A stretch of 64,000 bases of DNA from Candidatus Oxydemutator sp. (GCA_965203445.1 OZ241883.1:672001-736000), one strand, 5' to 3'; shown: positions 1-56,817, numbered from the stretch's first letter. Notes: generated from the sequence alone by a model not told the origin. Numbers and translations: made by a program.

Positions 1-3000
1 GCGCTGACGGCGCCGGACGGGATGACCACGCTGCCGGTCGTGCCGACAAAGTCGGCGGCGTCGACTTCGCCGCCGCCCACCGACCAATTCCAACTCGCGC
101 TCACCCCCGCCGGCAAGACCTTCGCCAAGCTCACCACGTAACTCGCGGTGCCACCTTCCGACACCGTCTCGCTGCCGGCGAGCGTCGGCACAAGAATTAC
201 CCCCTGCGCCTGCTGCTGCGACGTGCGACGCATCGCCATAGTCTCGGTAGCGCCGGCGAACACCAACACCGGGTAATCAAACACGGTACCGAAATCCCAC
301 GGCGCGTCGTCGTTCAAGTCGCCGTCGTCTTCCTGATCCACGTCGTCCACGTTCAACTGGTCCCAGCCCTCGTAGATGGTGAGCGCGGCCGTGGTCGGGC
401 TGAACAACTCGGCCGACGTCCTCGAGGTGTTGTCCGGACTCGGCGGATTCCTTCCGCAGCAACTGCTCTGGCCGCTGCGCTGGCCGTCAAAATAACTCGA
501 CTGCAACACGTCGGCGTAATTCAGCAGCAACGGTCGTATGTCGTAACCCCCTATCAAGCCGCCGACTCTGCTTCCCCCCGCCGTTTCCCCGATGGAGTAG
601 CTGGCGCTCACCACCGACGCGGCGGCGACTTCGCCTACCAGACCGCCCACGTTCCTTCCATCTGCCTGCACTTCCACGTCGGCGTAACTCGCCACCAAGC
701 TGCCGTAATGACCCCCGATCAAACCGCCCACCCCAAATACGCCGGATATGCGACCGCCACTGACGTAACTCGCCGCCACTTTGCCCTCGTTGCGACCCAC
801 CAGCGCTCCTATATAACTGCTACCACCGTCCTCCAGACTCACCCGCGCGTTACGCAAGCCCACGTTGCGGATGATGCCGTTGGCATTCACGGCCCCGAAC
901 AAACCCATGTGCCACCACCGCCTATCCCTGTTCATCCTCAGGTTGCTGATGACGTGGCCGTTGCCTTCAAAAACCGCGGTGTAATAATAATCCGCCGGAG
1001 CTCCGTCCCAGCATACACGCGTGCCCCTCGACTGCCGGGTAACGCAAGAGCGATAATCCTGCGGAAAGGCACCATCATTAGGAATCTCATCACTGCCGCC
1101 CCCGCCTATCGGCGTCCAGTCCGGGATGCTAGACAGATCCAGGTCGGCCGACAACTCGTAGCCGGTGCACGACGCCCCCGGACAGGTCTGCGTCTGCTCG
1201 AAAAACGGAAACGCCGCCAGATAAACGGCCCTGTTCGCGTCGCCGCTCACGCCCGCCAGCCCGGCACCGCCCAGGTCGTGGCGGATCGCCGCCAACTGCG
1301 ACGTCGTCGCCACCTCTATCAGGGTGTCGTCGTCGAGGTCGTAGTCTCTGCCGGCTCCGTCGCTGGGACTGATCACGGTGCTGACGGAAGCCGGCACACC
1401 CAGACTCACGCGCGCGGGCGCCCCCGCGAGCATCGCGTCGCTCAACGCGACCACCATGACCTCGGACAACTCGGTAATGACGTCATCGCGCACCCCCACC
1501 GAAAACGACGCGCTGCTCGCGCCGGATGCGATGACCACGCTGCCGCTGGTCCTGCCGTCAAAGTCGTCGGTGCTGACTTGGTTGCCGCCCACCGCCCAAT
1601 TCCAACTCGCAGTCACCCCCGCCGGCAAGGACTCCGGCAAGCTCACCACGTAACTCGCGGTGCCGCCTTCCGACACCCCCGCGCTTCCGGCGAACGTCGG
1701 CGTAAGACTTACCTCCGGCTGCGCCTGCTGCTGCGACGTGCGACGCGCCGACTCCGTGTCGGTAGCGCCGCCGAACACCAGCACCGGGTAATCAAACGCG
1801 CTGCCGAAATCCCATGGAGCGTCGTCGTTGTAGTCGCCGTCGCCCCCCTGATCCACGTCGTCCACGTTCAACTTGTCCCAACCGGCGTAGATGGTGCCCG
1901 CCGCCGTGATCGGGAGAATCAAGTCGCTCGACGTCTTCGCAACAACGTCGTCCAGACCGAACTCATTCGTTCCGCAGCAACTGCTCCGGAAGCTGCGCTC
2001 TTTGTCAAAATAACTCGACTCCACCGCGGCGATGACGGTCACCCCGAACTGTCCGCCACCCGCGGTGGCAACCCGCCGCCCTATCAAGCCGCCGACTCTG
2101 CTACCCCCCGTCGTTTCCCCGACGGAGTAGCTGGCGCTGACCACCGACGCGGCGCCGGCTTCGCCTACCAGACCGCCCGCGTTGCTTGCCTTTGCATGCA
2201 CCTCCACGTCGGCGTAACTCGCCACCAACCGGCCGTAATGACCCCCTATCAAACCGCCCACCCCGGATGCGCCGGATATGCGACCGCCACTGACGTAACT
2301 CGCCGCCACTTTGCCCTCGTTGCGGCCCACCAGCGCACCGGTATAGGTGCTGCTGCGACCCAAGTCCACCTGCGCGTTGCGCAAGCCCACGTTGCGGATT
2401 CTGCCGTCGGCGCCGACGATGCCGAACAAACCCGTGCCATACACCCCGCCGCCGCTCATCCGCAGGTTGCTGATGACGTGGCCGTTGCCTTCGAAAACAG
2501 CGGTGTAAGCATCCGGCGTACCGCCCCCGCCTAGCGGCGTCCAGTCCGCTACGTCGGACAGATCCAGGTCGGCCGATAACTCGTAGCCGGTGCACGCGCG
2601 CGGACAGCTCGCCTCGTCGAAAAAGGGAAACGCCTTCCGATAAGCGACGTTGTTCGTATCGCTCACGCCCGTCACCCCGGCACCGTCCAGGTCGTGGCGG
2701 ATCGCCGCCAACTGCGACGTCGTCGCCACCTCTATCAAGGTGTCGCCGTCGACGTCGTAGTCCTTTTCGACTCCGTCGCTGGGATCGATCACGGTCCTCA
2801 CCGGAGCGGGCACGCCTAAGCGCACGCCACGCGCGGGCACCCCCGCGCCCGTGAGCCTCGCGTTGCTCAACGCAACCACCATGGTCTCGAACGACTCGGC
2901 ATCGGCGTCGTCGCGCACCGTCAACGAAAACGCTATTCGGTTCTGGCCGGACTCGATGGTCACGCTGCCGGTGGTCGCGCCGACAATGTCGTCGGCGTTG

Positions 3001-4904
3001 ACTTCGCCGCCACCCACCGACCAATCCCAAGTCGCGTTCACCCCCACCGGCAAGGCTTCCGGCAAACGCACCGCGTAAAGCGCGACGCCACCTTCCGACA
3101 CGGTCTCGCTTCCGATGAGCGTCGGTGCAAGACTTACCTCCGGCTGCGCCTCCTGCTGCGACCTGCTACGCGCCTGCCTCGTCTCGGTAGCACCGCCGAA
3201 CACCAGCACCGGGTAATCAAACGCGGTGCCGAAATCCCATGGAGCGTCGTCGTTGTAGTCGCCGTCGCCTCCCTGATCCACGCGGTCCACGTGCAACTTG
3301 TCCCAACCCTCGTAGATGGTGCCCGCGGCGGTGGTCGGTGTGCGCAACTGGTGTGACGCCCTCGATCCGCAGCAACCACCCTGGCGACTGCGCTCCCGGT
3401 CAAAATAACTGGACTCCACCACGGCGCCGGCCACCCGGTTCCCTATCAAACCGCCAATCGGGTAAATCCCCGTCACTCTCCCGACCGAGTAGCTGGCGCT
3501 CACCACCGACGCGCCACCGGCTTCGCCTATCAGACCGCCCACGTTAGCTCCATCTGCATGCACTTCCACGTCGGCGTAACTCGCCACCAGCCTGCCGGCG
3601 TAATGACCCCCTATCAAACCGCCCACCCCCGCATTGCCGGATACGCGACCGCCAATGACGTAACTCGCCAACACTTCGCCCTCGTTGTCTCCCACCAGCG
3701 CACCTATAAACAAGCTATCACCACCCATTTCCACCTGCGCGTTGTGCAAGCCCACGTTGCGGATCACGCCGCCGGCGCCCACCCTGCCGAACAAACCTAT
3801 CTGCCACTCCCCGTCCCTGGCCACCCGCAAATTGCGGATGACGTGGCCGTTGCCTTCAAAAACGGCGGTGTAGGCATCCCCCGGCACGGCACGCGGAACC
3901 CCCCCGCCCAGCGGCTTCCAGCCTGGGCCCGGGGCCGGGTTCACACTGGACAGATCCAGGTCGGCCGACAACTCGTAGCCGGCGCACGTGCCCGGACAGG
4001 TCTCCATCTCGTCGTAATGGGGAAACGCCGCCCGATAAGCCCGATAAGCGGCCTCGTTGGCACTGCTCACGCCCGCCAGCCCGGCACCGCCCAGGTCGTA
4101 ACGGATCGCCGCCAACTGCGACGTCGTCGCCACCTCTATCAAGTTGTCGTCGTCAAAGTCGTAGTCCACGCGATCACGCACCTCGACCGTCACCACGTCC
4201 ACGCCCGTCGCACCGCGCGCGTCCGCAACCGTCAACTCGAACACCAGCGTCTCCGCCACCGCCACCCGCGGCACCGCGAACGTCGCCGTCTCCGACGTGG
4301 CGCCCGTCACCCCGACGACCGTGCCGCTGAGCTGACGCCACCGATACGTCAACTCCTCGCCTTCCGGATCATCCGCGACGCCGCGCAGCGTAACCACGTC
4401 GCCCTCGCTCACGATCACGTCGGAACCCGCGTCCACCATCGGCGCGTCGTTCGCGCCCGCGCGCACCGTGATCACCACCGTGTTCGTCGTATTGCCGACC
4501 AGCTGCCGTTCCACGGGCGACGACAAACCCCGCACGTCGGTTACCACCAGCGCGAACTCAAGCGTCTCGTCGTCCACCAACTGCGTCGGTGCCAGGAACG
4601 TCGTGCTGCGCGCCGCGGCGTCGCGCAACGCCACCGTGGCGCCGCCGGTCTGACGCCATGCGTACCTCAGCGGCTCGTTGTGCGAACTGCTGCTCGCGGC
4701 GCCGTCCAAAGTCACCACGGCACCCTCGGACACGGTCTGATCGGGCCCGGCGTGCGCCGTCGGCGCGACCGCTTCCTGGGCGGACACGGTAGCGACAACG
4801 GACAACCCTAATAGCAATAACAGACTACGCACCCCCCCCATCACTGGACCGCCGAGCGTTGGAGCAAGGGAGCGTCGGAGCGTTGAAGCGAGGAATCCGG
4901 CCAT
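1..4904 (-). CDS. Giant secreted repeat protein D (partial, >=1634 aa, continues beyond left edge): signal peptide, 2 PKD-like domains, >=3 GLUG/Calx-beta modules
   Basis: ATG at 4904 (cat 4902-4904) in a context identical to the start of gene C. The same frame at the window edge still reads ...ADFVGTTGSVVIPSGAVS. Not in the ORF track, consistent with no in-window stop. VATTSQLAA motifs near 4120, 2715 and 1300. Confidence 0.9.
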   Translation of the reverse strand, partial: MAGFLASTLRRSLAPTLGGPVMGGVRSLLLLLGLSVVATVSAQEAVAPTAHAGPDQTVSEGAVVTLDGAASSSSHNEPLRYAWRQTGGATVALRDAAARSTTFLAPTQLVDDETLEFALVVTDVRGLSSPVERQLVGNTTNTVVITVRAGANDAPMVDAGSDVIVSEGDVVTLRGVADDPEGEELTYRWRQLSGTVVGVTGATSETATFAVPRVAVAETLVFELTVADARGATGVDVVTVEVRDRVDYDFDDDNLIEVATTSQLAAIRYDLGGAGLAGVSSANEAAYRAYRAAFPHYDEMETCPGTCAGYELSADLDLSSVNPAPGPGWKPLGGGVPRAVPGDAYTAVFEGNGHVIRNLRVARDGEWQIGLFGRVGAGGVIRNVGLHNAQVEMGGDSLFIGALVGDNEGEVLASYVIGGRVSGNAGVGGLIGGHYAGRLVASYADVEVHADGANVGGLIGEAGGASVVSASYSVGRVTGIYPIGGLIGNRVAGAVVESSYFDRERSRQGGCCGSRASHQLRTPTTAAGTIYEGWDKLHVDRVDQGGDGDYNDDAPWDFGTAFDYPVLVFGGATETRQARSRSQQEAQPEVSLAPTLIGSETVSEGGVALYAVRLPEALPVGVNATWDWSVGGGEVNADDIVGATTGSVTIESGQNRIAFSLTVRDDADAESFETMVVALSNARLTGAGVPARGVRLGVPAPVRTVIDPSDGVEKDYDVDGDTLIEVATTSQLAAIRHDLDGAGVTGVSDTNNVAYRKAFPFFDEASCPRACTGYELSADLDLSDVADWTPLGGGGTPDAYTAVFEGNGHVISNLRMSGGGVYGTGLFGIVGADGRIRNVGLRNAQVDLGRSSTYTGALVGRNEGKVAASYVSGGRISGASGVGGLIGGHYGRLVASYADVEVHAKASNAGGLVGEAGAASVVSASYSVGETTGGSRVGGLIGRRVATAGGGQFGVTVIAAVESSYFDKERSFRSSCCGTNEFGLDDVVAKTSSDLILPITAAGTIYAGWDKLNVDDVDQGGDGDYNDDAPWDFGSAFDYPVLVFGGATDTESARRTSQQQAQPEVSLTPTFAGSAGVSEGGTASYVVSLPESLPAGVTASWNWAVGGNQVSTDDFDGRTSGSVVIASGASSASFSVGVRDDVITELSEVMVVALSDAMLAGAPARVSLGVPASVSTVISPSDGAGRDYDLDDDTLIEVATTSQLAAIRHDLGGAGLAGVSGDANRAVYLAAFPFFEQTQTCPGASCTGYELSADLDLSSIPDWTPIGGGGSDEIPNDGAFPQDYRSCVTRQSRGTRVCWDGAPADYYYTAVFEGNGHVISNLRMNRDRRWWHMGLFGAVNANGIIRNVGLRNARVSLEDGGSSYIGALVGRNEGKVAASYVSGGRISGVFGVGGLIGGHYGSLVASYADVEVQADGRNVGGLVGEVAAASVVSASYSIGETAGGSRVGGLIGGYDIRPLLLNYADVLQSSYFDGQRSGQSSCCGRNPPSPDNTSRTSAELFSPTTAALTIYEGWDQLNVDDVDQEDDGDLNDDAPWDFGTVFDYPVLVFAGATETMAMRRTSQQQAQGVILVPTLAGSETVSEGGTASYVVSLAKVLPAGVSASWNWSVGGGEVDAADFVGTTGSVVIPSGAVS

Positions 4905-5010
4905 TGTCTAACGCACCGAAAACGGCCTGTGCCGACCCTTGTTCTCTATCACGAAATACCGATCGGCGGACAGCACCTCGCCGTCAAAGTCCACGTCCGC
5001 GTCCACCGCG
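4330..5010. repeat. Near-identical copy of ~14896-15576 (gene junction, leader and first PKD domain)
   Basis: Constant 10566-bp offset (4468/15034, 4589/15155, 4908/15474), including the stop/start junction. Confidence 0.9.
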
Positions 5011-8000
5011 TAACGGCCGACCGCGGCCGCGGCGCGGTAGCCGACCGCGCCCAACGACGTCAGGTTGTACACGCGTATCAATGCCTCGTCTCGCTCATCA
5101 ATCACGCCGTTTCGATCCAGGTCGCCCGCGACCATCGCATGCAGGCCCGCCCCCATTTCAACCTGCCCGTCGCCGTGCGACTGCCCGACGCGGAAGTCCA
5201 CGCAGTAGTCCGCCTCGCAATCGGTGCCCGTGGCCGCGACGACCGGAGCAGACGACATCACCGGCAGATGGTTGCGGTGGTGGATCAGCACGTACAGATC
5301 CTCGCCTTCGGGCGGCTTCAGCTCGAAGCGCACGCCGTCCAATAACGACGCATCCGCCACCGACGCCGCCTCGTTTATCCCCGCGATGCGACCGTCGCTC
5401 AGCAGCAGACCCGTCGCGCGACCGCCCGCCAGCGGCCGCGACGACGCGGCCGCGGCCGCGCTCTGGCCGGTGCGCAACTCCACCAGCACCCAGTCCACTA
5501 TCGCCGAGGTTACCCCGGCCAGGCCGGCCGCCGTGCCCACGTGCGGCACCGTCGTCGTAGCCGGGTAGTTCCATGGGGACGCGCCGTACGGCTGGCGCCT
5601 CGGCAACAGACCCGCCAAGTCGCTCCTCATGCGGCGGGTTTCGGGAAGCAACGCCCCCTGCAAAACCACTCGCGCGTCCACCAGTATGCTCCTCGGGTCG
5701 CGCACGTTGACGTCCGCAAACGACGGGGTTCCCAGCTCCGCTACATGGGTGAGGCAATTCGGGCAGCCCGTCAACCTCAAACGGAAGCGCTCGCGCTCCT
5801 CATTCTCCAACTGGTCGCTCGCCACGCGCACCGCTATCGTCGCCGTGCCCATCTCATTCAACGTCACGCTCCCGGTGAACGGCAGCGAACCCACCGAGCG
5901 CGCGCTGGCGGCGCGCCCCTCTACGTTCACGGTAGCCAGGTCCTCGTGCGTCAAACCCTCGGATACGGCGGTAATCTCATATTCCACTACCACCGCCCGA
6001 TCACCGCCGCCACGCAGCGTGATCGTGAACGTCGCGGTAGTGCCTTCGCTCACCGTCGCGGACCTCGCCGCCACCGTTATCGGATCATTGATCGCTATCG
6101 TCGTACGCGCGACGGTGCTCGGCACGCCCAAACGTACGTCAGCCGGCGCCCCCGTGAGCCTCGCGCTGCTCAACGTAACCGCCAGCACCTCGGGCGGTTC
6201 GATAACGCCGTCGGCGCGCACCCTCAACACAAACGACGCGCTGGCGGCACCGGGCGCAATGACCACGCTGCCCGCGGTGGTGCCGACAAAGTCGTCGGCG
6301 TCGACTTCGCCGCCCACCGCCCAGCTCCAACGCGCGCTCGCCCCCGCCGGCAAGGCCCCCGGCAAGCGCACCACGTAACTCGCGGTGCCGCCTTCCGCCA
6401 CCACCGTGCTCCCGGTGAGCGTCGGCGCAAAATCTACCTCCGGCTGCGTCTGCTGCTGCGACGTGCGACGCGCCGCCTGCGTGTCGGTAGCGCCGCCGAA
6501 CACCAACACCGGGTAATCGAACACGCTGCCGAAATCCCACGGCGCGTCGTCGTTAAAATCGCCGTCGCGTCCCTGATCCAGGCCGTCCACGTTCAACCTG
6601 CTCCAACCGGCGTAGATGGTGCCCGTCGCCGTCGTCGGGGCGCGCAACTGGTTCGACGTCTTCGAGGTGTTGTCCGGACTCGGCACGTTCGATCCGCAGC
6701 AGTCACTTTGGCCGCTGCGCTCTCGGTCAAAATAACTGGACTCCACCACGGCGCCGACCATCCTGTTCCCTATCAAGCCGCCGGCCGTAGCCCCCGTCGG
6801 TTTCCCGACCGAGTAACTGGCGCTCACCACCGACGCGCCACCGGCTTCGCCCACCAGACCGCCCGCGTTGGCTCCCTCTGCTGTATGCACTTCCACGTCG
6901 GCGTAACTTGCTACCAGCCTGCCGTAATTACCCCCTATCAAGCCACCCACCGCCCATACGCCGGATATGCGACCGCCACTGACGTAACTCGCCACCACTT
7001 TGCCCTCGTTGCGCCCGACCAGCGCTCCTGTATTAGTACTGTGATCACCCAGGGATATCCACGCGTTGCGCAAGCCCACGTTGCGGACCGTGCCGACGGC
7101 GCTCACGGCGCCGAACAAGCCCGTATGAGACAACCGCCCACCCCTGGCCACCCGCAGATTGCTGATGACGTGGCCGTTGCCTTCAAAAACAGCGGTGTAA
7201 TAATTATCCAGAAGGCTGTCCCCTCCCCCGCCTATCGGCGTCCAACCCGGGCCCGGGGCCGGCTCCACGCTGGACAAATCCAGGTCGGCCGACAACTCGT
7301 AGCCGGTGCACGTGCTCGGACAGGTCTGCTTCTCGTCGAAAACGGGAAACGCCGCGAAATAAGCGAGTCTGTTCGCCTTGCCCACCACGCCCGCTATCCC
7401 GGCACCGCCCAGGTCATAGCGGATTGCCGCCAACTGCGACGTCGTCGCCACGTCTATCAAACCGTCGTTGTCGTCGTCGTAGTCTATCTCGTCGCTCGCC
7501 TCGATCGTGGTCCTGACGGAAACCGGCACGCCTAAACGCGCACGCGCGGGCGCCCCCGTCGGCATCGCGCTGCTCAACGTTACCACCATGACCTCGGACA
7601 ACTCAGGGATAGTGTCATCGAACACCTCCACCGAAAACGACGCGCTGCTCGCGCCGGAACCGATGACTACGACGCCGGTCGTACCGACAAAGTCGGCGAT
7701 GCTAACCTCGTCGCCGCCCACGACCCAATCCCAACGCACGCTCGCCCCCGTCGGCAAGGCCTCCGGCAAACTCACCACGTAACTCGCCGCCTCGCCTTCC
7801 GACACGGTAACGCTCCCGGTGAGCGTCGCCGCAAGAATTATCGCCGGCTGCGCCTCCTGCTGCGACGTGCGGCGCATCGCCATAGTCTCGGTAGCGCCGC
7901 CGAACACCAGCACCGGATAATCAAACACGGTGCCGAAATCCCACGGCGCGTCGTCGTTCAGATCATCGTCGCCCGTCTGATCCACGTCGTCCACGTTCAA

Positions 8001-15470: not shown

Positions 15471-15473
15471 TGT

Positions 15474-42890: not shown

Positions 42891-42893
42891 TGC

Positions 42894-45800: not shown

Positions 45801-48800
45801 CCCGGTGAGCGTCGCCGCAAGAATTACCGCCGGCTGCGCCTCCTGCTGCGACGTGCGGCGCATCGCCATAGTCTCGGTAGCGCCGCCGAACACCAGCACC
45901 GGGTAATCAAACACGGTGCCGAAATCCCACGGCGCGTCGTCGTTCAGATCATCACCGCCCGTCTGATCCACGTCGTCCACGTTCAACTGGTCCCAACCCG
46001 CGTAGATCGTGCCCGCCGCGGTGGTGGGCGCGCGCAACTGGTTCGACGTCTGCGGGGTGTTGTCCGGACTCGGCACGCTATTTCCGCAGCATCGGCTCTG
46101 GCCGCTGCGCCCGGTGTCAAAATAACTCGACTCCACCACCGCGGCGATGGCCTTGCTCCCTATCAAGCCGCTGGGTATGCCCCTCGCTATGTTTGAGGGA
46201 TCGATGTACCCCGTCGTCGCCCCGACCGAGTAACTGGCGCTCACCACCGACCCGACGGCGCTTCCGCCTATCAGACCGCCTCCGGTTGGACCTGATTCTA
46301 CATACATTTCCACGTCGGCGTAACTCGCCACCACCACACCGAAATTACCCCCCACCAAACCGCCCACCGTCTCTACGCCGAATACGCGACCGCCAATCAC
46401 GTAACTCGCCGCCACCTTGCCCTCGTTGCGGCCCACCAGCGCACCTACATGATCGCCACCATCGCCACCACCACCCAGTGCAAACGGAGCCAGCTCCACC
46501 CGCGCGTTGTGCAAGCCCACGTTGCGGATCACGCCGCCGGCGCTCACGGCGCCGAACAAACCCATGTAATACGAGTCCCCTTTCCTGGTCATCGTCAGAT
46601 TGCTGATGACGTGGCCGTTGCCTTCAAAAACGGCGCTGTAATAATCCGCATCCCTCAGCCCCGGCCCCCTACGGGGGTTACCGCTGTCCCCGCCCAGCGG
46701 CGTCCAGTTCAAGCCGGACAAGTCCAGATCGCTCGACAACTCGTAGCCGGTGCACGTGCTCGGACAGGTCTGCGGCGCGCCGAAAAGGGGAAACGCCGCA
46801 AAATAAGCGGATTTGTTCGCACTGCTCACGCCCGCTATCCCGGCACCGCCCAGGTCGTAGCGGATCGCCGCCAACTGCGACGTCGTCGCCACCTCTATCA
46901 AACCGTCGTCGTCCTCGTCGTAGTCGGTGCCGTCGTTGAACTCGATCGTGGTCCTGAAGGGAAGCGGCACGCCCAAAGCCACGCCCTGCGGCGCCCCCGC
47001 GAGCCTCGCGTTGCTCAACGCAACCACCATGACCTCGGGCATCTCGATCTCGCCGTCGGCGCGCACCCTCAACACAAACGACGCGCTGGCGGCGCCGGCT
47101 GCGATGACCACGCTGCCTACGGTGGTGCCGACAAAGTCGTCGGCGTCGACTTCGCCGCCGCCCACCGACCAATTCCAACTCGCGCTCACCCCCGCCGGCA
47201 AGGCCCCCGAAAAGCGCACCACGTAACTCGCGATCCCACCTTCCTGCCCCGTCGCACTCCCGGCGAGCGTCGGCGTAAGAATTACCTCCGGCCGCGCCTG
47301 CCGCTGCGACGTGCGACGCACCGCCTCGGTCTCGGTAGCGCCGCCGAACACCAGCACCGGGTAATCAAACACGCCGCCGAAATCCCACGGCGCGTCGTCG
47401 TTGTAGTCGCCGTCGCGTCCCTGATCCACGTCGTCCACGTTCAACTGGTCCCAACCCGCGTAGATGGTGCCCGCCGCCGTGGTCGGAAAAAGCAACTCGG
47501 CCGACAACCTCGGGGTGTGGTCCGGATCCGGCGAATTCCTTCCGCAGCAGCTGCTCAGGCCGCTGCGCTCTTTGTCAAAATAACTGGACTCCACCACGGA
47601 GCCGGTAACCCTGCTCCCTATCAAACCATTGGCCGATACCCCCGTCGGTCTGCCGATGGAGTAACTGGCTGTCACGGCCCCCTCGGATGAGTCTGAACCC
47701 ACGAGGCCGCCCGCGTTCGCCCCACCTGCATGCACTTCCACGTCGGCGTAACTCGCCACCACCTCACCGCCATTGATTCCTATCAAGCCGCCCACCGAGA
47801 TTCCGCCGGATATGCGACCGCCACTGACGTAACTCGCCGCCACTTTGCCGCCGTTGGTTCCCACCAGCGCACCTGCACTCTCGCTATCACGACCCAGGTC
47901 TATCTGCGCGTTGCGCAAGCCCACGTTGCGGACTCTGCCGTCGGCGCCCACCCTGCCGAACAAACCCACGAGAAACCATCGTCCACTCCTCACCACCCGC
48001 AGATTGCTGATGACGTGGCCGTTGCCTTCAAAAACCGCGGTGTAAACATCCCCCGGAAGGTCTTCCAGCCTGACGCCCCCGCCTATCGGCGTCCAGCCCG
48101 CGCCCGGCGCCGGTTCCACGTCGGACAGGTCCAGATCATTCGACAGCTCGTAGCCGGTACACGTGCTGGGACAGGTCTGCCCGTCGCCGAAAAAGGGAAA
48201 CGCCGCCAGATAAGCGGCCCTGTTCGCGTCGCCGCTCACGCCCGCTATCCCGACACCGCCCAGGTCGTAGCGGATCGCCGCCAACTGCGACGTCGTCGCC
48301 ACCTCTATCAAGGTGTCGCCGTCGTCGTCGTAGTCTATCTGGTCGCTCGCCTCGATCGTGGTCCTGACCGCAAGCGGCACGCCCAGACCCACGTGCGCGG
48401 GCACCCCCGTGAGCCTTGCGTTGCTCAACGTTACCACCATGACCTCGGACAACTCGGACACGCCGTCTGCGCGCACTGCCACCGAAAACGACGCGCTGAC
48501 GGCGCCGGACGGGATGACCACGCTGCCGGTCGTGCCGACAAAGTCGGCGGCGTCGGCTTCGCCGCCGCCCACCGACCAATCCCAATGCGCGCTCACCCCC
48601 GGCAGCAAAGGCTGCGGCATGATCATGTCGACACACCCTAAGGTGGTGCAAACTCTGGACGTCGCCACCGGCAAGCCCCCCCCCGCCAAGCTCACCACGT
48701 AACTCGCGGTGCCACCTTCCGACACCGTCTCGCTGCCGGCGAGCGTCGGCACAAGAATTACCCCCTGCGCCTGCTGCTGCGACGTGCGACGCATCGCCAT

Positions 48801-51800
48801 AGTCTCGGTAGCGCCGGCGAACACCAACACCGGGTAATCAAACACGGTGCCGAAATCCCACGGCGCGTCGTCGTTCAAGTCGCCGTCGTCTCCCTGATCC
48901 ACGTCGTCCACGTTCAACTGCTCCCAGCCCTCGTAGATGGTGAATGCGGCCGTGGTCGGGCTGAACAACTCGGCCGACGTCCTCGAGGTGTTGTCCGGAC
49001 TCGGCGGATTCCTTCCGCAGCAACTGCTCTGGCCGCTGCGCTGGCCGTCAAAATAACTCGACTGCAACACGTCGGCGTAATTCAGCAGCAACGGTCGTAT
49101 GTCGTAACCCCCTATCAAGCCGCCGACTCTGCTTCCCCCCGCCGTTTCCCCGATGGAGTAGCTGGCGCTCACCACCGACGCGGCGGCGACTTCGCCTACC
49201 AGACCGCCCACGTTCCTTCCATCTGCCTGCACTTCCACGTCGGCGTAACTCGCCACCAAGCTGCCGTAATGACCCCCGATCAAACCGCCCACCCCAAATA
49301 CGCCGGATATGCGACCGCCACTGACGTAACTCGCCGCCACTTTGCCCTCGTTGCGGCCCACCAGCGCTCCTATATAACTGCTACCACCGTCCTCCAGACT
49401 CACACGCGCGTTACGCAAGCCCACGTTGCGGATGATGCCGTTGGCGTTCACGGCCCCGAACAGACCCATGTGCCACCACCGCCCATCCCTGTCCATCCTC
49501 AAATTGCTGATGACGTGGCCGTTGCCTTCAAAAACCGCGGTGTAATAATAATCCACCGGAGGGGTTTCCTCGCTGACCCAGCATACACGTGTATGCCCCG
49601 TCTGGTCGACAACGTCCCCCGTCTGGGCAATGCAATCGGAATAATCCTGCGGAAAGGCATCATCATTAGGAATCTCATCACTGCCGCCCCCGCCTATCGG
49701 CGTCCAGTCCGGGATGCTCGACAGATCCAGGTCGGCCGACAACTCGTAGCCGGTGCACGACGCCCCCGGACAGGTCTGCGTCTGCTCGAAAAACGGAAAC
49801 GCCGCCAGATAAACGGCCCTGTTCGCGTCGCCGCTCACGCCCGCCAGCCCGGCACCGCCCAGGTCGTGGCGGATCGCCGACAACTGCGACGTCGTCGCCA
49901 CCTCTATCAGGGTGTCGTCGTCGAGGTCGTAGTCTCTGCCGACTCCGTCGCTGGGACTGATCGCGGTGCTGACGGGAAGCGGCACGCCCAAACTCACGCG
50001 CGCGGGCGCCCCCGTGAGTATCGCGTCGCTCAACGCGACCACCATGACCTCGGACAACTCGGTAATGACGTCATCGCGCACCCTCACCGAAAACGACGCG
50101 CTGCTCGCGCCGGATGCGATGACCACGCTGCCGCTGGTCGCGCCGACAAAGTCGTCGGTGCTGACCTGGTTGCCGCCCACCGCCCAATTCCAACTCGCAG
50201 TCACCCCCGCCGGCAAGGCCTCCGGCAAGCTCACCACGTAACTCGCGGTGCCACCTTCCGACACCCCCGCGCTTCCGGCGAACGTCGGCGTAAGACTTAC
50301 CTCCGGCTGCGCCTGCTGCTGCGACGTGCGACGCGCCACCTCCGTGTCGGTAGCACCGCCGAACACCAGCACCGGGTAATCAAACGCGCTGCCGAAATCC
50401 CACGGACTGTCGTCGTTGTAGTCGCGGTCGCCCCCCTGATCCACGTCGTCCACGTTCAACTGGTCCCAACCCTCGTAGATGGTGCCCATCGCCGTGGTCG
50501 GGAGAATCAAGTCGCTCGACGTCTTCGCAACAACGTCGTCCAGACCATGCGCGTTCGTTCCGCAGCAACTGCTCCGGAGGCTGCGCTCTTTGTCAAAATA
50601 ACTCGACTCCACCGCGGCGATGATGGTCACCCCGAACTGTCCGCCACCCGCCGAGGCAACCCGCCGCCCTATCAAGCCGCCGACTCTGCTACCCCCCGTC
50701 GTTTCCCCGACGGAGTAACTGGCGCTTACCACCGACGCGACACTGGCTTCGCCTACCAGACCGCCCACCTGACCTATACTTGCATGCACTTCCACGTCGG
50801 CGTAACTCGCCACCAACCTGCCGTCATTGCCCCCTATCAAGCCGCCCACCCTGAATGAACCGGATATGCGACCGCCACTGACGTAACTCGCCGCCACTTT
50901 GCCCCGGTTGCGCCCCACCAGCGCTCCCACGTAGATGTGTCCTACGGCCACCTGCGCGTTGCGCAAGCCCACGTTGCGGATTCTGCCGTCGGCGCCGACG
51001 ATGCCGAACAAACCCGTGCCATACACCCCGCCGCCGCTCATCCGCAGGTTGCTGATGACGTGGCCGTGACCTTCGAAAACAGCGGTGTAAGCAACCGGCG
51101 TACCCCCCCCGCCTAGCGGCGTCCAGTCCGCTATGCCGGACAGGTCCAGGTCGGCCGACAACTCGTAGCCGGTGCACGCGCGCGGACAGCTCGCCTCGTC
51201 GAAAAAGGGAAACGCCTTCCGATAAGCCCGATACGCGGCCTCGTTGGCACTGCTCACGCCCGCCAGCCCGGCACCGTCCAGGTCGTGGCGGATCGCCGCC
51301 AACTGCGACGTCGTCGCCACCTCTATCAAGGTGTCGCCGTCGACGTCGTAGTCCTTTTCGACTCCGTCGCTGGGATCGATCACGGTCCTCACCGGAGCGG
51401 GCACGCCTAAGCGCACGCCACGCGCGGGCACCCCCGCGACCGCGAGCCTCGCGTTGCTCAACGCAACCACCATGGTCTCGAACGACTCGGCATCGGTGTC
51501 GTCGCGCACTTCCAACGAAAACGACGCGCTGACGGCGCCGGATGCGATGACGACGTCGCCGGTGGTCGCGCCGACAAAGTCGTCGGTGCCGACTTCGCCA
51601 CCCACCGACCAATTCCAAGTCGCGCTCACCCCCGCCGGCAAGGCCTCCGGCAAACTCACCTGGTAACTCGCCGTCTCGCCTTCCGACACCGTCGGGGACC
51701 CCGTGAGCGTCGGCGCAAGAATTACTTCCGGCTGCGCCTCCTGCTGCAACGTGCGACGCGCCGACTCCGTGTCGGTAGCACCGCCGAACACCAGCACCGG

Positions 51801-54800
51801 GTAATCAAACGCGGTGCCGAAATCCCACGGACCGTCGTCGTTGAAATCGCCGTCGCCTCCCTGATCGACGCGGTCCACGTTCAACTTGTCCCAACCCTCG
51901 TAGAGGGTGCCCACCGCGGTGGTCGGGGTGCGTAACTGGTGTGACGCCCTCGATCCGCAGCAGCCACCCTGGCGACTGCGCTCCCGGTCAAAATAACTGG
52001 ACTCCACCACGGCGCCGGCCACCCGGTTCCCTATCAAACCGCCAATCGGGTAAATCCCCGTCACTCTCCCGACCGAGTAGCTGGCGCTCACCACCGACGC
52101 GCCACCGGCTTCGCCTATCAGACCGCCCACGTTAGCTCCATCTGCATGCACTTCCACGTCGGCGTAACTCGCCACCAGCCTGCCGGCGTAATGACCCCCT
52201 ATCAAACCGCCCACCCCCGCATTGCCGGATACGCGACCGCCAATGACGTAACTCGCCAACACTTCGCCCTCGTTGTCTCCCACCAGCGCACCTATAAACA
52301 AGCTATCACCACCCATTTCCACCCGCGCGTTGTGCAAGCCCACGTTGCGGATCACGCCGCCGGCGCCCACCCTGCCGAACAAACCTATCTGCCACTCCCC
52401 GTCCCTGGCCACCCGCAAATTGCGGATGACGTGGCCGTTGCCTTCAAAAACGGCGGTGTAAGCATCCCCCGGCACGGCACGCGGAACCCCCCCGCCCAGC
52501 GGCGTCCAGCCTGGGCCCGGGGCCGGGTTCACGCTGGACAGATCCAGGTCGGCCGACAACTCGTAGCCGGCGCACGTGCCCGGACAGGTCTCCATCTCGT
52601 CGTAATGGGGAAACGCCGCCCGATAAGCCCGATAAGCGGCCTCGTTGGCACTGCTCACGCCCGCCAACCCGGCGCCGCCCAGGTCGTAGCGGATCGCCGC
52701 CAACTGCGACGTCGTCGCCACCTCTATCAAGTTGTCGTCGTCGGCGTCGTAGTCCATCTGGTCGCTCGCCTCGATGGTGGTCCTTACGGAAACCGGCACG
52801 CCTACACTCACGCGCGCGGGCGCCCCTGCGAGCCTCGCGCCCGTCAACGTTACCACCAGCACCTCGGACAACTCGGCCACGTCGTCATCGAACACCCGCA
52901 CCGAAAACGACGCGCTGCTCGCGCCGGATGCGATGACTACGACGCCGGTCGTGCCGACAAAGTCGGCGACGCCGACTTCGCCGCCGCCCACCGTCCAATC
53001 CCAACGCGCGCTCACCCCCGCCGGCATGACCACCGGCAAACTCACCACGTAACTCGCGGCCTCACCTTCCGACACCGTCGCGCTGCCGGCGAGCGTCGGT
53101 GCAAGACTCACTTCCGGCTGCGCTTCCTGCTGCGACGTGCGACGCATCGCCACAGTCTCGGTAGCGCCGCCGAACACCAGCACCGGGTAATCCAGCGAGG
53201 TGCCGAAATCCCACGGACCGTCGTCGTTGTAGTCGCCGTCGCCTCTCTGATCGACGCCATCCACGTTCAACTTATCCCAACCCTCGTAGAGGGTGCCGGC
53301 CGCGGTAGTGGGACCGAACAAGTCGCTTGACGTCTTCGGGGCGTTGTCCGGACTCGGCGGATTCGTTCCGCAGCAACTGCTCTGACCGCTAAGCTCGCCG
53401 TCAAAATAACTTGACTCTATCGCGGCGGTGGCGGCCCTGGCCCCGATCAAGCCACCGATCTTAATCCCGGTCTTTTCCCCGATGGAGTAACTGGCGCTCA
53501 CCACCGACCCGGCATTGCCCGCGCCTATCAGGCCGCCTCCCGTATTTATACCTGCAATCACTTCCACGTCGGCGTAACTCGCCACCACCTGACCGGAATT
53601 ACTTCCCACCAGGCCGCCCACCGCCTGGTCGCCGGATACACTACCGCCACTGACGTAACTCGCCGCCACCTTGCCCTCGTTGCGTCCCACCAGCGCGCCT
53701 ATATAAAGGCTATTATTACCCACGCTCACCCGCGCGTTGCGCAAACCCACGTTGCGGATCACGCCGACGTCGCTGACGACGCCGAACAAACCCATGCTGT
53801 ACAACCGGCGATCATTCCTGGTTATCGTCAGATTGCTGATAACGTGGCCGTTGCCTTCAAAAACGGCGCTGTATGGATTCCTCAAACGCTCCCCGAGCGT
53901 GGTGGCCGCTCCGCCTATCGGCGTCCAATTCAAGCCGGACAGATTCAGGCCGGCCGACAACTCGTAGCCGGTGCACGTGCTGGGACAGGTCTGTATCTCA
54001 CCGAAAAGGGGAAATGCCGCCAGATAAGCCCGATAAGCGGCCTCGTTGGCACTGCTCACGCCCGCCAGCCCGGCACCGCCCAGGTCGTGGCGGATCGCCG
54101 CCAACTGCGACGTCGTCGCCACCTCTATCAAGGTGTCGTCGTCGACGTCGTAGTCCATGCGATCACGCACCTCGACCGTCATCGTGTCCACGCCCGTCGC
54201 GCCGCGCGCGTCCGCAACCGTCAACTCGAACCCCAGCGTCTCCACCACCTGCGGCGCCAGGAACGTCGCCGTCTCCGAGGTGGCGCCCGTCACCACGACG
54301 ACCGTGCCGCTGGTCTGACGCCACCGATACGTTACATCCTCGCCCTCCGGATCAACCGCGCCGCCGCGCAGCGTAACCACGCCGCCCTTGCCCGCAATCA
54401 AGTCGGAACCCGCGTCCGCCATCGGCGCGTCGTTCGCGCCCGCGCGCACCGTGATCACCACCGTGTTCGTCGTCTGACCACTCAGCTGCCGTTCCACGGG
54501 CGACGACAAACCCCGCACGTCGGTTACCACCAGCGCGAACTCAAGCGTCTCGTCGTTCACCAACTGCGTCGGTGCCAGGAACGTCGTGCTGCGCGCCGCG
54601 GCGTCGCGCAGCGCCACCGTGGCGCCGCCGGTCTGACGCCAGCCGTACCTCAGCAGCTCGTTCCGCGGACTGCTCGCGGCGCCGTCCAAAGTCACCACGG
54701 CGCCCTCGGACACGTCCTGATCGGGCCCGGCGTGCGCCGTCGGCGCGACCGCTTCCTCGGCGGACAACGTGTAGGTGCCCGTCGCGCCGGCCGCGGGCGC

Positions 54801-55874: not shown

Positions 55875-55932
55875 TCATTGATTCCAGTGATGGCCAGTGT
55901 CGCCTCGCTGCACGGGCGGCGTCCGACTGCGG

Positions 55933-55979
55933 AATATACCACGAAAACGCCAGTTTCCTTATGAAATGCGGGAACTGGC
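55933..55979 (-). promoter_or_regulatory. Putative extended -10 promoter (TGGTATATT) for the giant-gene array, with an adjacent imperfect inverted repeat
   Basis: Minus-strand TGnTATATT at 55941-55933, ~60 nt upstream of gene A. gccagtttcc-N11-gggaactggc at 55949-55979. No good -35 box. Confidence 0.35.
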
Positions 55980-56126
55980 CCTGCTCCGAAGGGAAAATAC
56001 TGTCATCGGACACTCTGCGCCACGTGCAACCCCAACGGGGCTTGTACAGGTGGACCGATGAAATGGGGTTTTTAGAGATTCCCTTATGACAGAGGAGGCA
56101 GCTCGACGTATAAAAAGAATCCCGAA

Positions 56127-56612
56127 CTATCGGTATGTTCGCAAGCTTACACTTTCGAAGTCGAAGGGCATTTGTCCTTTTTGGTCACGTTTAGACTCCC
56201 TTAGAATCGGCACAAGCGTGACCGACTGCAACGGGCCTTTGTCGCAAACACGTTTCAGCGATTGGGTGATGGGCACTACTATGCGCTGGCGGGTCAGCGG
56301 ATGCTGAGTCACCAGTGGCGCGCCAAGCATGGGTCGGGGCACGTCACAATGGCCGTCTCCGCCGAAGCAACCACCGTGGCCAAACACCGTGAATTTTCCC
56401 GCGTAGCCGGCGTCAGCGATGCATTTTGTATCGCAGTTCGCTTGCTTGTTGTTCAAGTAAATTCGCACTTCATAGGAAAGCGTGCCGTGGTCAACCCCCA
56501 TGAAGATCAAATCAGCACGAGAAAACCTCATCTCCCCATTTTCCGGCGATTTGAAGTTCAGATCCGCGTGGCGAACCTCGTTATTCACACCTGTCTTTTT
56601 TTGTGGTTCCAT
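56127..56612 (-). CDS. Hypothetical protein (~161 aa), probable tyrosinase-associated beta-sandwich (C-terminal/shielding-domain-like) protein
   Basis: ORF 56127..56627; ATG at 56612 is preceded by GAGGAAGG. Motifs SYEVRIYLNN and YAGKFTVFGHGGCFGGDGHCDVP resemble the YAGxF C-terminal domains of type-3 copper proteins. Lies directly after the tyrosinase fragment. Confidence 0.7.
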   Translation of the reverse strand: MEPQKKTGVNNEVRHADLNFKSPENGEMRFSRADLIFMGVDHGTLSYEVRIYLNNKQANCDTKCIADAGYAGKFTVFGHGGCFGGDGHCDVPRPMLGAPLVTQHPLTRQRIVVPITQSLKRVCDKGPLQSVTLVPILRESKRDQKGQMPFDFESVSLRTYR

Positions 56613-56623
56613 ATAACCCTTCC

Positions 56624-56815
56624 TCACTGAACGACTTGAATGGCGTACTCATAGCCGAGTCTAGCAATATCGAGTGTTTGGGCAACCGTCATGGGAAACG
56701 GCGACAATACAGTGTCCAACATATGGTCCGGGGGATTCTGGCCATGCTCACTGTTCTGCCACAGATACCAGAGGCGGTCTATCATAGAGTGATGAGACCA
56801 GAAAATCGGATCAAA
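56624..56815 (-). pseudogene. 5'-truncated tyrosinase / type-3 copper protein (end of CuB site and C-terminus only)
   Basis: FDPIFWSHHSMIDRLWYLWQ matches the tyrosinase CuB signature DPxFxxHHxxxDxxWxxWQ, followed by LSPF and LGYEY. Upstream, this frame is merely an alternative frame of mpl with no CuA. Confidence 0.85.
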
Positions 56816-56817
56816 GG

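What the first reader, a model, noticed from the sequence alone, without database searches (positions are those of the whole stretch)
1..54160. Repertoire of 31 modules with invariant framework and patterned hypervariable positions (antibody/VLR-like surface binder array)
Seen: framework DNA is nearly identical across copies, even at synonymous sites (VATTSQLAA, FEGNGHV, RNVGL, WDFG..YPVL). Variation is concentrated in (i) a loop of very variable length between WxP(L/I)GG and YxAVFEGNG (DTPDS, VPRAVPGDA, EATTLTHRLRNP, ITRAPWDIPPERR, ATRRSRVGPGNSNTPPLDGR, or a >40-aa Cys loop) and (ii) 3-4 residues before each rung motif. Before GLF: WHSM, WWHM, WFLV, SYYM, LSHT, WYHV, WYYL, WHFV. Before GAL: SSYI, HIYV, SEFT, GTYI. 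Before VGG: VFG, SFR, VWA, AFS, EQG, DQA. These positions are enriched in W/Y/H/F. Established: GLUG repeats form beta-solenoids and Calx-beta domains act as Ca-stiffened spacers. Inference: the variable residues stack on one solenoid face as a diversified binding surface, giving a multivalent, multi-specificity adhesin or decoy system for host, phage or glycan recognition.
Basis: partly seen in the sequence, partly recalled or inferred. Interest (0 to 1): 0.85.

Follow-up and report, generated by a model that had tools for sequence, protein, structure and literature searches.

The report
Giant repeat-protein array with variable solenoid turns
Four back-to-back giant secreted proteins of a small-genome marine bacterium are built from 31 copies of one 470-residue module whose rigid core is kept while a few surface turns vary, which looks like an ordinary but very large adhesin family rather than an antibody-like system.

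Summary
The 31 modules are real. They lie in four tandem minus-strand genes, which belong to a six-gene, 158,650-bp array of 90 modules.

The other 26 lie elsewhere.

The framework is not specially conserved at silent sites. pS is 0.255 in invariant columns, against 0.23-0.30 in most others.

Modules are mosaics made by gene conversion. The 31 collapse to 19 groups at 85% identity or more.

Pre-rung sites evolve near neutrality (omega 1.07-1.43). A site model finds 33 of 466 sites with dN above dS, against 2-9 in null simulations. Six of the 20 pre-rung sites are among them.

omega is high throughout these genes and elevated in two housekeeping genes. The genome has no reverse transcriptase.

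The fold could not be predicted, so the one-face claim rests on rung periodicity alone.

Verdict: a lineage-specific expansion of the widespread GLUG-type giant surface-protein family, with modest diversifying selection.

The parts
42894..55874 (-). Gene A, 4326 aa. Likely start is the ATG at 55832 (MRSLLSS..., signal-peptide-like). It has an N-terminal PPC + PKD region, 7 modules and a C-terminal domain.
   Evidence: ORF list; start region; Pfam PPC, PKD_4 and K319L-like_PKD; modules.
15474..42890 (-). Gene B, 9138 aa. It has a 1679-aa N-terminal region without a Pfam family, which holds two degenerate module-like stretches. Then come 15 modules and a C-terminal domain.
   Evidence: One search found no Pfam family at E<=0.01. 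One search found weak module hits of 167 and 234 bits at aa 473-818 and 1225-1680.
4908..15470 (-). Gene C, 3520 aa (P0001). It has a signal-peptide-like start, two PKD-like domains, 6 modules and a C-terminal domain.
3..4904 (-). 5' part of gene D. 1634 aa lie in the window. The whole gene is 10540 aa with 21 modules and continues beyond the window start. The window holds its N-terminal PKD region and modules D1-D3.
   Evidence: The full ORF is genome 645288-676907.
44037..54161 (-). Modules A1-A7.
   Evidence: Coordinates; alignment.
16692..37853 (-). Modules B1-B15.
   Evidence: Coordinates; alignment.
6051..14744 (-). Modules C1-C6.
   Evidence: Coordinates; alignment.
3..4172 (-). Modules D1-D3. 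D3 is cut by the window edge.
   Evidence: Coordinates; alignment.
4908..6050 (-). C-terminal non-module domain of gene C (about 380 aa), with a dockerin-like acidic pair near the end. The same domain closes gene A (42894-44036) and gene B (15474-16691).
   Evidence: Pfam Dockerin_1 at E 5.8e-4, below its cut-off. Paralogue comparison.
15398..15405 (-). Run of eight G (coding sense) directly after an in-frame ATG at the head of gene C's signal peptide. An identical run lies at 4832-4839 in gene D.
   Evidence: The same position holds runs of 27 and 25 G in genes F and E outside the window.
15468..15476 (-). Gene junction TAG-ACA-ATG: the stop of gene B, one codon, then the start of gene C, all in one frame. 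The same junction lies at 4902-4910 between C and D. Between A and B the junction is TAG-GCA-GTG at 42888-42896.
   Evidence: Sequence read.

Best explanation
The window holds four of six tandem genes for giant secreted repeat proteins of a small-genome gammaproteobacterium. A close relative occurs in a sponge metagenome.

Each module of about 470 aa has four parts:
- an acidic DxDxD cap;
- a five- or six-rung GLUG-type beta-solenoid (inferred);
- a C-cap with conserved Cys pairs;
- a Calx-beta-like sandwich.

The modules multiplied recently (dS about 0.3) by tandem and whole-gene duplication, and they keep exchanging segments by gene conversion. Core rung residues are under strong purifying selection. 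An insertion-prone loop and the three to five residues in the turn before each rung are free to vary. They evolve at about the neutral rate, and a minority of sites shows real diversifying selection.

The product is most likely a set of long, multivalent surface or extracellular fibres (adhesin-like) offering many slightly different turn surfaces. Diversity comes from ordinary germline duplication, recombination and weak selection, not from a dedicated hypervariation mechanism.

Shown: architecture, copy number, mosaicism and site-wise selection. Inferred: the solenoid fold, surface exposure, Ca binding and the adhesive role.
For: ARCHITECTURE.
- Four ORFs and 31 modules.
- Signal-peptide-like starts.
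- 4 conserved Cys per module, up to 8 in modules with inserts.
- Rung periodicity and internal repeat homology.

FAMILY.
- 514 of 2367 scored giant proteins match a module. Many carry PF07581 or PF05342, and one is named 'GLUG motif-containing protein'.
- 61,011 cluster representatives match at E<=0.001.
- 14 of 18 same-family genomes have the helix part, but the 800-bit module is found only in this genome.

SCALE.
- 90 modules in 158,650 bp.
- 23 ORFs of 2000 aa or more, equal to 20.8% of the genome.

RECENT ORIGIN AND MOSAICISM.
- Median dS 0.30.
- The nearest neighbour changes from segment to segment.
- 285 of 463 module pairs have longer identical runs than permutation gives at p<0.05, where 23 are expected.

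SELECTION.
- omega by region: helix core 0.56, pre-rung 1.07, loop 1.02.
- Close pairs: pre-rung 1.21 against helix-rest 0.32.
- M2a beats M1a by 2dlnL = 807, with 14.9% of sites at omega 3.1.
- 33 of 466 sites have P(beta>alpha) > 0.9, against 2, 4 and 9 in three null simulations with recombination.

NO SPECIAL MECHANISM.
- No RVT_1 in the complete genome.
- pS is uniform across column classes.
Against: - No structure could be predicted, so the solenoid fold and the exposure of the variable turns are inferred.
- Pfam Glug and Calx-beta are sub-threshold for single modules. No solved homologue of the helix was found.
- No expression or localisation data exist. How 3,500-16,000-aa proteins would cross a Gram-negative outer membrane is unexplained.
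- My site tests are home-made (parsimony counts, fixed FastTree segment trees, NG86). They do not model multi-nucleotide changes brought in by gene conversion.
- Homopolymers and repeat counts in a long-read assembly may contain errors.
Confidence: 0.6

Rival explanations
1. The array is an adaptively diversified, multi-specificity binder repertoire. The stacked variable turns form one binding face per module, and selection maintains many different specificities for host, glycan or phage ligands.
For: - Variability recurs at the same position before each rung in five successive rungs.
- Sites with dN above dS are enriched there: 6 of 20 against 27 of 446, p = 0.0015.
- Real data exceed the null simulations.
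- W/Y/H/F make up 46-48% of residues before rung 1.
- There are 73 distinct five-turn combinations in 90 modules.
- Gene conversion could shuffle turn variants.
Against: - Class-wide omega is only 1.07-1.43.
- 27 of the 33 selected sites lie outside the pre-rung class, 11 of them in the Calx-like domain.
- The last two rungs carry no aromatic enrichment.
- Blocks of 84-95% identical neighbouring modules exist (D14-D21, F24-F33).
- Non-module domains show similar omega.
- No binding data and no structure are available.
Confidence: 0.2
2. Purely neutral reading. The modules are structural spacers of a long fibre or cell coat. The variable turns and loop are simply unconstrained, and the diversity is drift plus gene conversion in a small-population symbiont, with no role in binding.
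For: - omega is close to 1 at pre-rung and loop sites.
- omega is 0.37-1.44 in the N- and C-terminal domains of the same genes.
- Two housekeeping genes give 0.2-0.4 against same-genus genomes.
- Adjacent and non-adjacent modules are equally similar (0.700 against 0.707, p = 0.75).
Against: - 33 sites have P(beta>alpha) > 0.9, against 2-9 under a neutral null with recombination. At P > 0.99 the counts are 13 against 0-1.
- M2a beats M1a by 2dlnL = 807.
- Aromatic enrichment at the variable positions (15-16%, against 5% in other variable columns) is not expected from drift alone.
Confidence: 0.15
3. Targeted hypermutation, by a diversity-generating retroelement or a similar device, writes the variable positions.
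For: Only the appearance of an invariant framework with patterned variable positions.
Against: - No RVT_1 match in the 100%-complete genome, while the control genomes ring.
- Silent-site divergence is uniform across column classes.
- The variable sites are spread over about 470 aa in 90 copies, not in one short variable region.
Confidence: 0.01
4. Assembly artefact. The array's length, module order or mosaics come from misassembly of repeats.
For: - The array is highly repetitive.
- Only Logan contigs, not raw reads, could be laid, and the module region cross-maps heavily, with a summed depth in the thousands.
Against: - The genome is a single contig scored 100% complete and 0.19% contaminated.
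- All giant ORFs are open over 3,500-16,000 codons without stops.
- Most neighbouring modules are only 54-78% identical, which long reads resolve easily.
- The run that holds the stretch matches the unique flank exactly.
Confidence: 0.03

Closest known systems
GLUG motif-containing giant proteins (Pfam PF07581, often with PF05342 Peptidase_M26_N), as annotated in metagenome-assembled genomes
   Same: - Same cap-helix-C-cap unit.
- Module hits reach E 1.5e-192 to a protein named 'GLUG motif-containing protein'.
- 61,011 cluster representatives match the module profile.
- Multi-module giant proteins are the rule among the hits.
   Different: - Here each helix is followed by a Calx-beta-like domain. 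Only some listed hits cover the full 466 positions.
- The 800-bit version is amplified to 90 copies in this genome alone among the 31 searched.
- No member I could find has a solved structure or a tested function (paper searches).
Chlamydial polymorphic membrane proteins (Pmp)
   Same: - A paralogous family of predicted adhesins with repeated GGA(I,L,V) motifs and conserved cysteines.
- One member carries a poly-G tract proposed to give phase variation (PMC4488443; passages read).
- Here there are G-G-L-x-G rungs, conserved Cys, and poly-G runs at gene starts.
   Different: - Pmps are type V autotransporters of about 1000 aa with one passenger domain.
- Here no autotransporter barrel or any other anchor family was found.
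- Here the proteins are 3,500-16,000 aa with up to 33 modules.
- No sequence relationship was tested.
Giant RTX/T1SS adhesins with Ca-stiffened Ig-like extender repeats (for example LapA and ice-binding adhesins; recalled, not read here)
   Same: Very long tandem-repeat surface proteins with probable Ca-binding acidic motifs and beta-sandwich spacers.
   Different: - There are 0-2 chance matches to the RTX nonapeptide per protein, and no HemolysinCabind hit.
- The starts look like Sec signal peptides, which T1SS substrates lack (recalled).
- The repeat unit is a 470-aa helix-plus-sandwich module, not a 100-aa Ig domain.
Variable lymphocyte receptors and other solenoid binders with variable positions on one face (recalled)
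   Same: A solenoid-type repeat with conserved core positions and variable residues at fixed offsets in each turn, plus exchange of segments between copies.
   Different: - There is no somatic assembly and no dedicated machinery.
- All copies are expressed in cis as one polypeptide.
- omega at the variable sites is only about 1-1.4.
- The fold is unverified.
Calx-beta domains (Na/Ca exchanger CBD1; sponge aggregation factors)
   Same: - Weak profile match to NCX1 CBD at E 0.018 over 79 positions, including the acidic DD..E stretch.
- Pfam Calx-beta at 47.8 bits for whole gene C.
- Sponge aggregation factors are built of Calx-beta domains (PMC5400394; listing and abstract only).
   Different: - Single modules reach E<=1 in only 6 of 28 cases, best 0.0089.
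- Only part of the acidic Ca-binding cluster is kept.
- Any mimicry of the host factor is speculation.

Membership tests
GLUG motif repeat proteins (PF07581) | Match to the Pfam Glug model above its gathering score (20.5 bits). | tested here: inconclusive
   11 of 28 modules match at E<=1, best E 6.9e-4. The two modules shown in full scored 12.0 and 12.5 bits. Whole gene C gave no Glug hit at E<=0.01.
GLUG motif repeat proteins (PF07581) | Clear homology to proteins that carry the family. | tested here: met
   514 of 2367 scored proteins match at E<=0.001. Many of the 120 listed carry precomputed PF07581. P0047, named 'GLUG motif-containing protein', matches at E 1.5e-192.
GLUG motif repeat proteins (PF07581) | Tandem rungs of about 26-28 aa with a G-G-L-x-G core. 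| tested here: met
   Five rungs are spaced 26-31 columns apart, with invariant G, L and G. hhalign gives R2-R3 E 6.8e-5, R4-R5 E 9.1e-6, and R2+3 against R4+5 E 1.8e-7. R0 and R1 do not match the others (E 0.11-0.95).
GLUG motif repeat proteins (PF07581) | Right-handed beta-solenoid fold. | not testable with these tools
No solved homologue was found by sequence.
Calx-beta domain (PF03160) | Match to the Pfam model above its gathering score (27 bits). | tested here: inconclusive
   Whole gene C scores 47.8 bits at E 1.7e-12, but no single stretch passes on its own. Single modules: 6 of 28 at E<=1, best 0.0089. The PDB profile search gives NCX1 CBD at E 0.018.
Calx-beta domain (PF03160) | Acidic Ca-binding cluster (the DDD...E..E stretch). 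| tested here: inconclusive
   The stretch aligns to the NCX1 acidic segment. In the 90-module consensus, one Asp of 'RDDD' is invariant and the neighbours vary. Which residues bind Ca in NCX1 is recalled.
Diversity-generating retroelement targets | A reverse transcriptase in the genome. | tested here: not met
   0 matches to RVT_1 in the 100%-complete genome. The same search rings in 3 of 14 control genomes.
Antibody/VLR-like diversified receptors | Framework held constant, silent sites included, while variable sites diverge. | tested here: not met
   pS is 0.255 in invariant columns and 0.23-0.30 in most other classes. It reaches 0.40-0.46 only in the most variable columns.
Antibody/VLR-like diversified receptors | Variable sites under positive selection (dN well above dS). 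| tested here: inconclusive
   The class omega is 1.07, 1.21 and 1.43. 6 of 20 pre-rung sites have P(beta>alpha) > 0.9. The null gives 2-9 such sites in all 466.
RTX/T1SS giant adhesins | C-terminal RTX nonapeptide repeats. | tested here: not met
   A regex for GGxGxDx(hydrophobic)x finds 0-2 matches per protein. No HemolysinCabind family appears in the Pfam scans.
Type V autotransporter adhesins (Pmp-like) | C-terminal autotransporter barrel. | tested here: not met
   The C-terminal 380 aa match only Dockerin_1 (E 5.8e-4) and DUF7927 (E 0.02) in Pfam, and a chance-level NCBIfam hit.
Phase-variable contingency genes | A homopolymer tract at the gene start whose length changes switch expression. 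| tested here: inconclusive
   Tracts are present: runs of 8 G in genes C and D, 25 in E and 27 in F, each directly after an ATG. Length variation could not be examined, because only contigs were available.

The most novel reading that the evidence does not exclude
The six-gene array is a germline library of about 90 beta-solenoid binding modules. Gene conversion shuffles a limited set of turn variants among the modules, and diversifying selection keeps the stacked, aromatic-rich turns different. This gives a host-associated bacterium a multivalent, multi-specificity surface for recognising or evading a sponge-like host. Poly-G tracts at the gene starts would switch whole genes on and off. It would be a bacterial, in-cis counterpart of solenoid-based immune receptors.
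Probability: 0.2. Interest if true: 0.8.

Novelty: new member of a known kind. Interest (0 to 1): 0.5.

Why it matters
A 2.38-Mb genome spends 20.8% of its DNA on ORFs of 2000 aa or more, and 6.7% on this one array. The products must matter to the organism's way of life, which probably involves an animal host.

The module is a compact, Cys-stabilised solenoid that tolerates very different residues at fixed turn positions. If those turns bind ligands, it would be a natural scaffold for engineered binders. It would also open a way into how reduced-genome symbionts recognise hosts.

The family is huge (61,011 cluster representatives). My text searches found no paper on its structure or function, so one solved and assayed module would inform a very large set of proteins.

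The array is also a clean natural case for studying gene conversion together with site-specific selection in tandem repeats.

Tried and rejected
STRUCTURE.
No model and no fold search were therefore possible.
- I did not use complex prediction as a substitute.
- PDB sequence searches with one module, the 28-module profile and homologue P0009 found no helix homologue. They returned only weak Calx-beta, antibody-noise and FN3 hits.

PAPERS.
- 'GLUG' + 'symbiont' returned microsporidian (Glugea) noise.
- 'Oxydemutatoraceae' returned 0 papers.
- 'GLUG motif' returned 2 unrelated papers.
- 'IgA1 protease' + 'GLUG' returned 0.
- The giant-protein and giant-gene searches gave only context: 10.1101/2023.11.21.568195, seen as listing and abstract.
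- Supplements were not consulted.

READS.
- No RNA holder is listed.
- All runs are Logan contigs, so within-population variants and poly-G length could not be examined.
- The part 54896-56800 (gene A N-terminus and promoter) had next to no cover (depth 0-1.1) in runs X4, X5 and X12. This is no evidence of absence.

REJECTED IDEAS.
- DGR.
- Selection for dissimilar neighbouring modules: adjacent 0.700 against non-adjacent 0.707 identity, p = 0.75.
- RTX/T1SS and autotransporter membership.
- Poly-G tracts as a companion of the modules: among relatives the two do not go together. Genus g4 has tracts in 5 of 5 genomes and modules in 2 of 5. Genus g3 has modules in 5 of 5 and tracts in 1 of 5.

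METHOD NOTES.
- The first FUBAR-like run gave NaN because beta = 0 has zero likelihood at variable sites. It was repaired.
- A 753-aa ORF is an antisense artefact and was ignored.
- The NG86 figures are rough in this GC-rich DNA.
- 29 of the 90 modules were left out of the site models, to keep taxa below 93% nt identity.

Full report
WHAT IS THERE. The minus strand of the window carries four huge open reading frames:
- A: 42894-55874, 4326 aa.
- B: 15474-42890, 9138 aa.
- C: 4908-15470, 3520 aa.
- D: 3-4904, cut by the window edge.

Each gene starts with a signal-peptide-like sequence. B/C and C/D are separated only by TAG-ACA-ATG in one frame, and A/B by TAG-GCA-GTG.

The anchor ATTSQL occurs 7+15+6+3 = 31 times at spacings of 455-533 aa. 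Module A1 ends at 54161, which matches the finding's end coordinate.

Downstream lie ordinary housekeeping ORFs. By my reading of the translations these are mpl, yaaA, pmbA, tldD, ndk and a ferredoxin.

WIDER SETTING. The window is bases 672001-736000 of a single 2,378,814-bp contig with 63.6% G+C, scored 100% complete.
- Gene D is really 10540 aa with 21 modules.
- Two further genes follow it: E (9081 aa, 8 modules) and F (16130 aa, 33 modules).
- The array therefore spans 158,650 bp and holds 90 modules scoring above 550 bits.
- Genome-wide, 178 near-full module hits lie in giant ORFs.
- 23 ORFs of 2000 aa or more make up 20.8% of the genome.
- TldD is at best 70% identical to a MAG titled 'Candidatus Oxydemutatoraceae bacterium', and otherwise matches Gammaproteobacteria.
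- Contigs of a run labelled 'sponge metagenome' match the housekeeping flank at about 94-95% identity over 922-1187 bases. A relative therefore lives in a sponge sample. This is a weak pointer to habitat.

WHAT THE MODULE IS. Pfam hits on single modules are only sub-threshold:
- Glug in 11 of 28 modules, best E 6.9e-4.
- Calx-beta in 6 of 28, best E 0.0089.
- Whole gene C reaches Calx-beta at 47.8 bits.
- The module profile matches the Na/Ca-exchanger Ca-binding domain at E 0.018.

Homology to the wider family is nevertheless clear.
- 514 of 2367 scored giant proteins match. Many carry PF07581 or PF05342, and one is named 'GLUG motif-containing protein'.
- 61,011 cluster representatives match at E<=0.001, mostly over profile positions 2 to about 240-330, which is the cap plus helix. 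Only some cover the Calx-like part.
- Among 30 relatives, 14 of 18 same-family genomes have the helix part. The 800-bit module occurs only in this genome, and the same-genus genomes reach only E 1e-10 to 1e-13.

Inside the module, five rungs of 26-31 columns share an invariant G-(G/A)-L-x-G and a downstream S-Y. Rungs 2-5 are detectably homologous to one another (hhalign E 6.8e-5, 9.1e-6 and 1.8e-7), but rungs 0 and 1 are not. Most modules have four Cys, and those with inserts have up to eight. That this is a beta-solenoid is inference.

IS THE VARIATION PATTERNED? Yes.
- In the 31 modules, mean entropy is 2.35 bits in the 20 pre-rung columns and 2.50 in the 12 loop columns, against 0.79 elsewhere.
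- 21 of the 47 most variable columns lie in those 32 columns (p = 6e-16).
- The loop is 6-48 aa long, with 27 distinct sequences.
- However, 26 of the top 47 columns lie elsewhere, including the turn after G-L-x-G in rungs 3-5 and nine columns of the Calx-like domain.
- W/Y/H/F make up 46-48% of residues before rung 1, 15-20% before rungs 2-3 and 0-3% before rungs 4-5. Overall the figure is 15-16%, against 5% in other variable columns.

IS THE FRAMEWORK FROZEN AT SILENT SITES? No.
- Invariant residues often use a single codon, even the rare ATA and TTG.
- But the pairwise silent difference in invariant columns is 0.255. This is no lower than in most other classes (0.23-0.30), and it reaches 0.40-0.46 only in the most variable columns.
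- The shared codons simply reflect recent common origin. Median dS is 0.30 and dN is 0.22.

HOW THE COPIES RELATE. Typical module pairs are 52-78% identical.
- Genes A, C and D are paralogues with positional pairs at 87-100%, so the 31 modules form 19 groups at 85% or more.
- The nearest neighbour changes from segment to segment. B15, for example, is closest to B5, then A6, then A7.
- 285 of 463 pairs have longer identical runs than permutation gives at p<0.05, where 23 are expected.
- In 40 independent close pairs, multi-difference codons are far too common.

This is gene conversion. Adjacent modules are no less alike than distant ones (0.700 against 0.707), and blocks of 84-95% identical neighbours exist in D and F.

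SELECTION. Parsimony counting on the 90 modules with six segment trees gives a global omega of 0.67. By region:
- pre-rung 1.07 (1.59 against the global silent rate);
- loop 1.02;
- helix core 0.56;
- N-cap 0.54;
- post-helix 0.52;
- Calx-like 0.83.

Single-difference codons in the 40 close pairs give pre-rung 1.21 (19 silent, 76 replacement), loop 0.63, helix-rest 0.32 and Calx-like 0.66.

A maximum-likelihood site model on 61 modules (below 93% nt identity, six segment trees) prefers M2a to M1a by 2dlnL = 807. It puts 14.9% of sites at omega 3.1.

A FUBAR-like grid with silent-rate variation gives 33 of 466 sites with P(beta>alpha) > 0.9. Of these, 29 exceed 0.95 and 13 exceed 0.99. By region:
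- pre-rung 6 of 20;
- loop 2 of 12;
- helix-rest 8 of 137;
- N-cap 3 of 82;
- post-helix 3 of 82;
- Calx-like 11 of 133.

The pre-rung enrichment has Fisher p = 0.0015. Three null simulations without positive selection, each with three different trees per segment, gave 2, 4 and 9 sites above 0.9 and 0, 0 and 1 above 0.99.

There is therefore real but modest diversifying selection. It is enriched at the pre-rung turns but not confined to them.

Against a special status for the modules:
- The C-terminal and N-terminal non-module domains of the same genes have omega 0.37-1.44 between paralogues.
- TldD and PmbA against same-genus genomes give 0.2-0.4 by the same rough method.

MECHANISM. The complete genome has no reverse transcriptase, so a diversity-generating retroelement is excluded. 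Nothing points to somatic assembly. Ordinary duplication, gene conversion, relaxed constraint and some positive selection explain the picture.

FUNCTION (INFERRED). Five features fit long extracellular or surface fibres of adhesin type:
- signal-peptide-like starts;
- conserved Cys;
- acidic DxDxD and dockerin-like motifs;
- PKD and PPC domains at the N-termini;
- the sheer size of the proteins.

RTX/T1SS and autotransporter membership are not met.

The closest analogy in behaviour is the chlamydial Pmp family. These are paralogous GGA(I,L,V)-motif adhesins with conserved cysteines, one of which has a poly-G tract (PMC4488443; passages read).

VERDICT. The antibody-like interpretation is overstated. 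The object is a very large, lineage-specific expansion of a widespread but uncharacterised giant-protein family, with stacked variable turns that evolve near neutrality and a minority of sites under positive selection. Whether those turns form a binding face is untested.

Noticed in passing
window 15398-15405 and 4832-4839; genome 617587-617613 and 644946-644970 (outside the window): Poly-G runs sit directly after an ATG at the head of the signal peptide: 8 G in genes C and D, 25 in E and 27 in F. As assembled, E is in frame with that ATG and F is not. The genome has 12 G/C runs of 13 or more. This suggests slipped-strand phase variation, but homopolymer lengths in the assembly are uncertain.
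   Followed up: partly
relatives G001-G030: Runs of 15 or more G occur in 16 of the 31 genomes searched (G000 included). They do not track the presence of the helix modules: genus g4 has tracts in 5 of 5 genomes and modules in 2 of 5, while genus g3 has modules in 5 of 5 and tracts in 1 of 5.
   Followed up: partly
whole genome G000: 23 ORFs of 2000 aa or more (up to 17496 aa) make up 164,685 aa, or 20.8% of a 2.38-Mb genome. Several further module families scoring 150-500 bits lie at other loci.
   Followed up: partly
window 4902-4910, 15468-15476, 42888-42896: Consecutive giant genes are joined by a stop, one codon and a start codon, all in the same frame. In C and D the promoter-bearing leader seen upstream of E and F is missing, and an in-frame ATG follows the upstream stop. 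This suggests translational coupling or read-on.
   Followed up: partly
window 56127-57007, minus strand: Two short adjoining ORFs between gene A and mpl. One contains a ...FDPIFWSHHSMIDRLWYLWQ... stretch that I recall as tyrosinase-like copper-site sequence. It looks like a split or decayed gene and was not searched.
   Followed up: no
window 37854-42890 (gene B, first 1679 aa): A long N-terminal region with no Pfam or NCBIfam family. It holds two degenerate module-like stretches of 167 and 234 bits, perhaps decayed modules.
   Followed up: partly
window 48342-49940, 10356-11888, 3-1352 (modules A4, C3, D3): The variable loop carries a 39-48-aa insert with two extra Cys. A4 also has a further Cys-containing insert in its Calx-like part.
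   Followed up: no
L085-L088 (tldD and pmbA in this genome and three same-genus genomes): By NG86, the housekeeping genes TldD and PmbA give dN/dS of 0.2-0.4 at dS 0.4-0.6. This is high for such genes. It may reflect weak selection in this lineage or a bias of the method in GC-rich DNA.
   Followed up: no
P0009 and P0047 (homologues from other metagenomes): A protein named from 'Candidatus Poriferisocius' and an unnamed metagenome protein share the same cap-helix-C-cap unit. P0009 also shares the C-terminal domain of the window's genes. In its canonical rungs the pre-rung turn is a near-constant G-N-D-x rather than variable.
   Followed up: no
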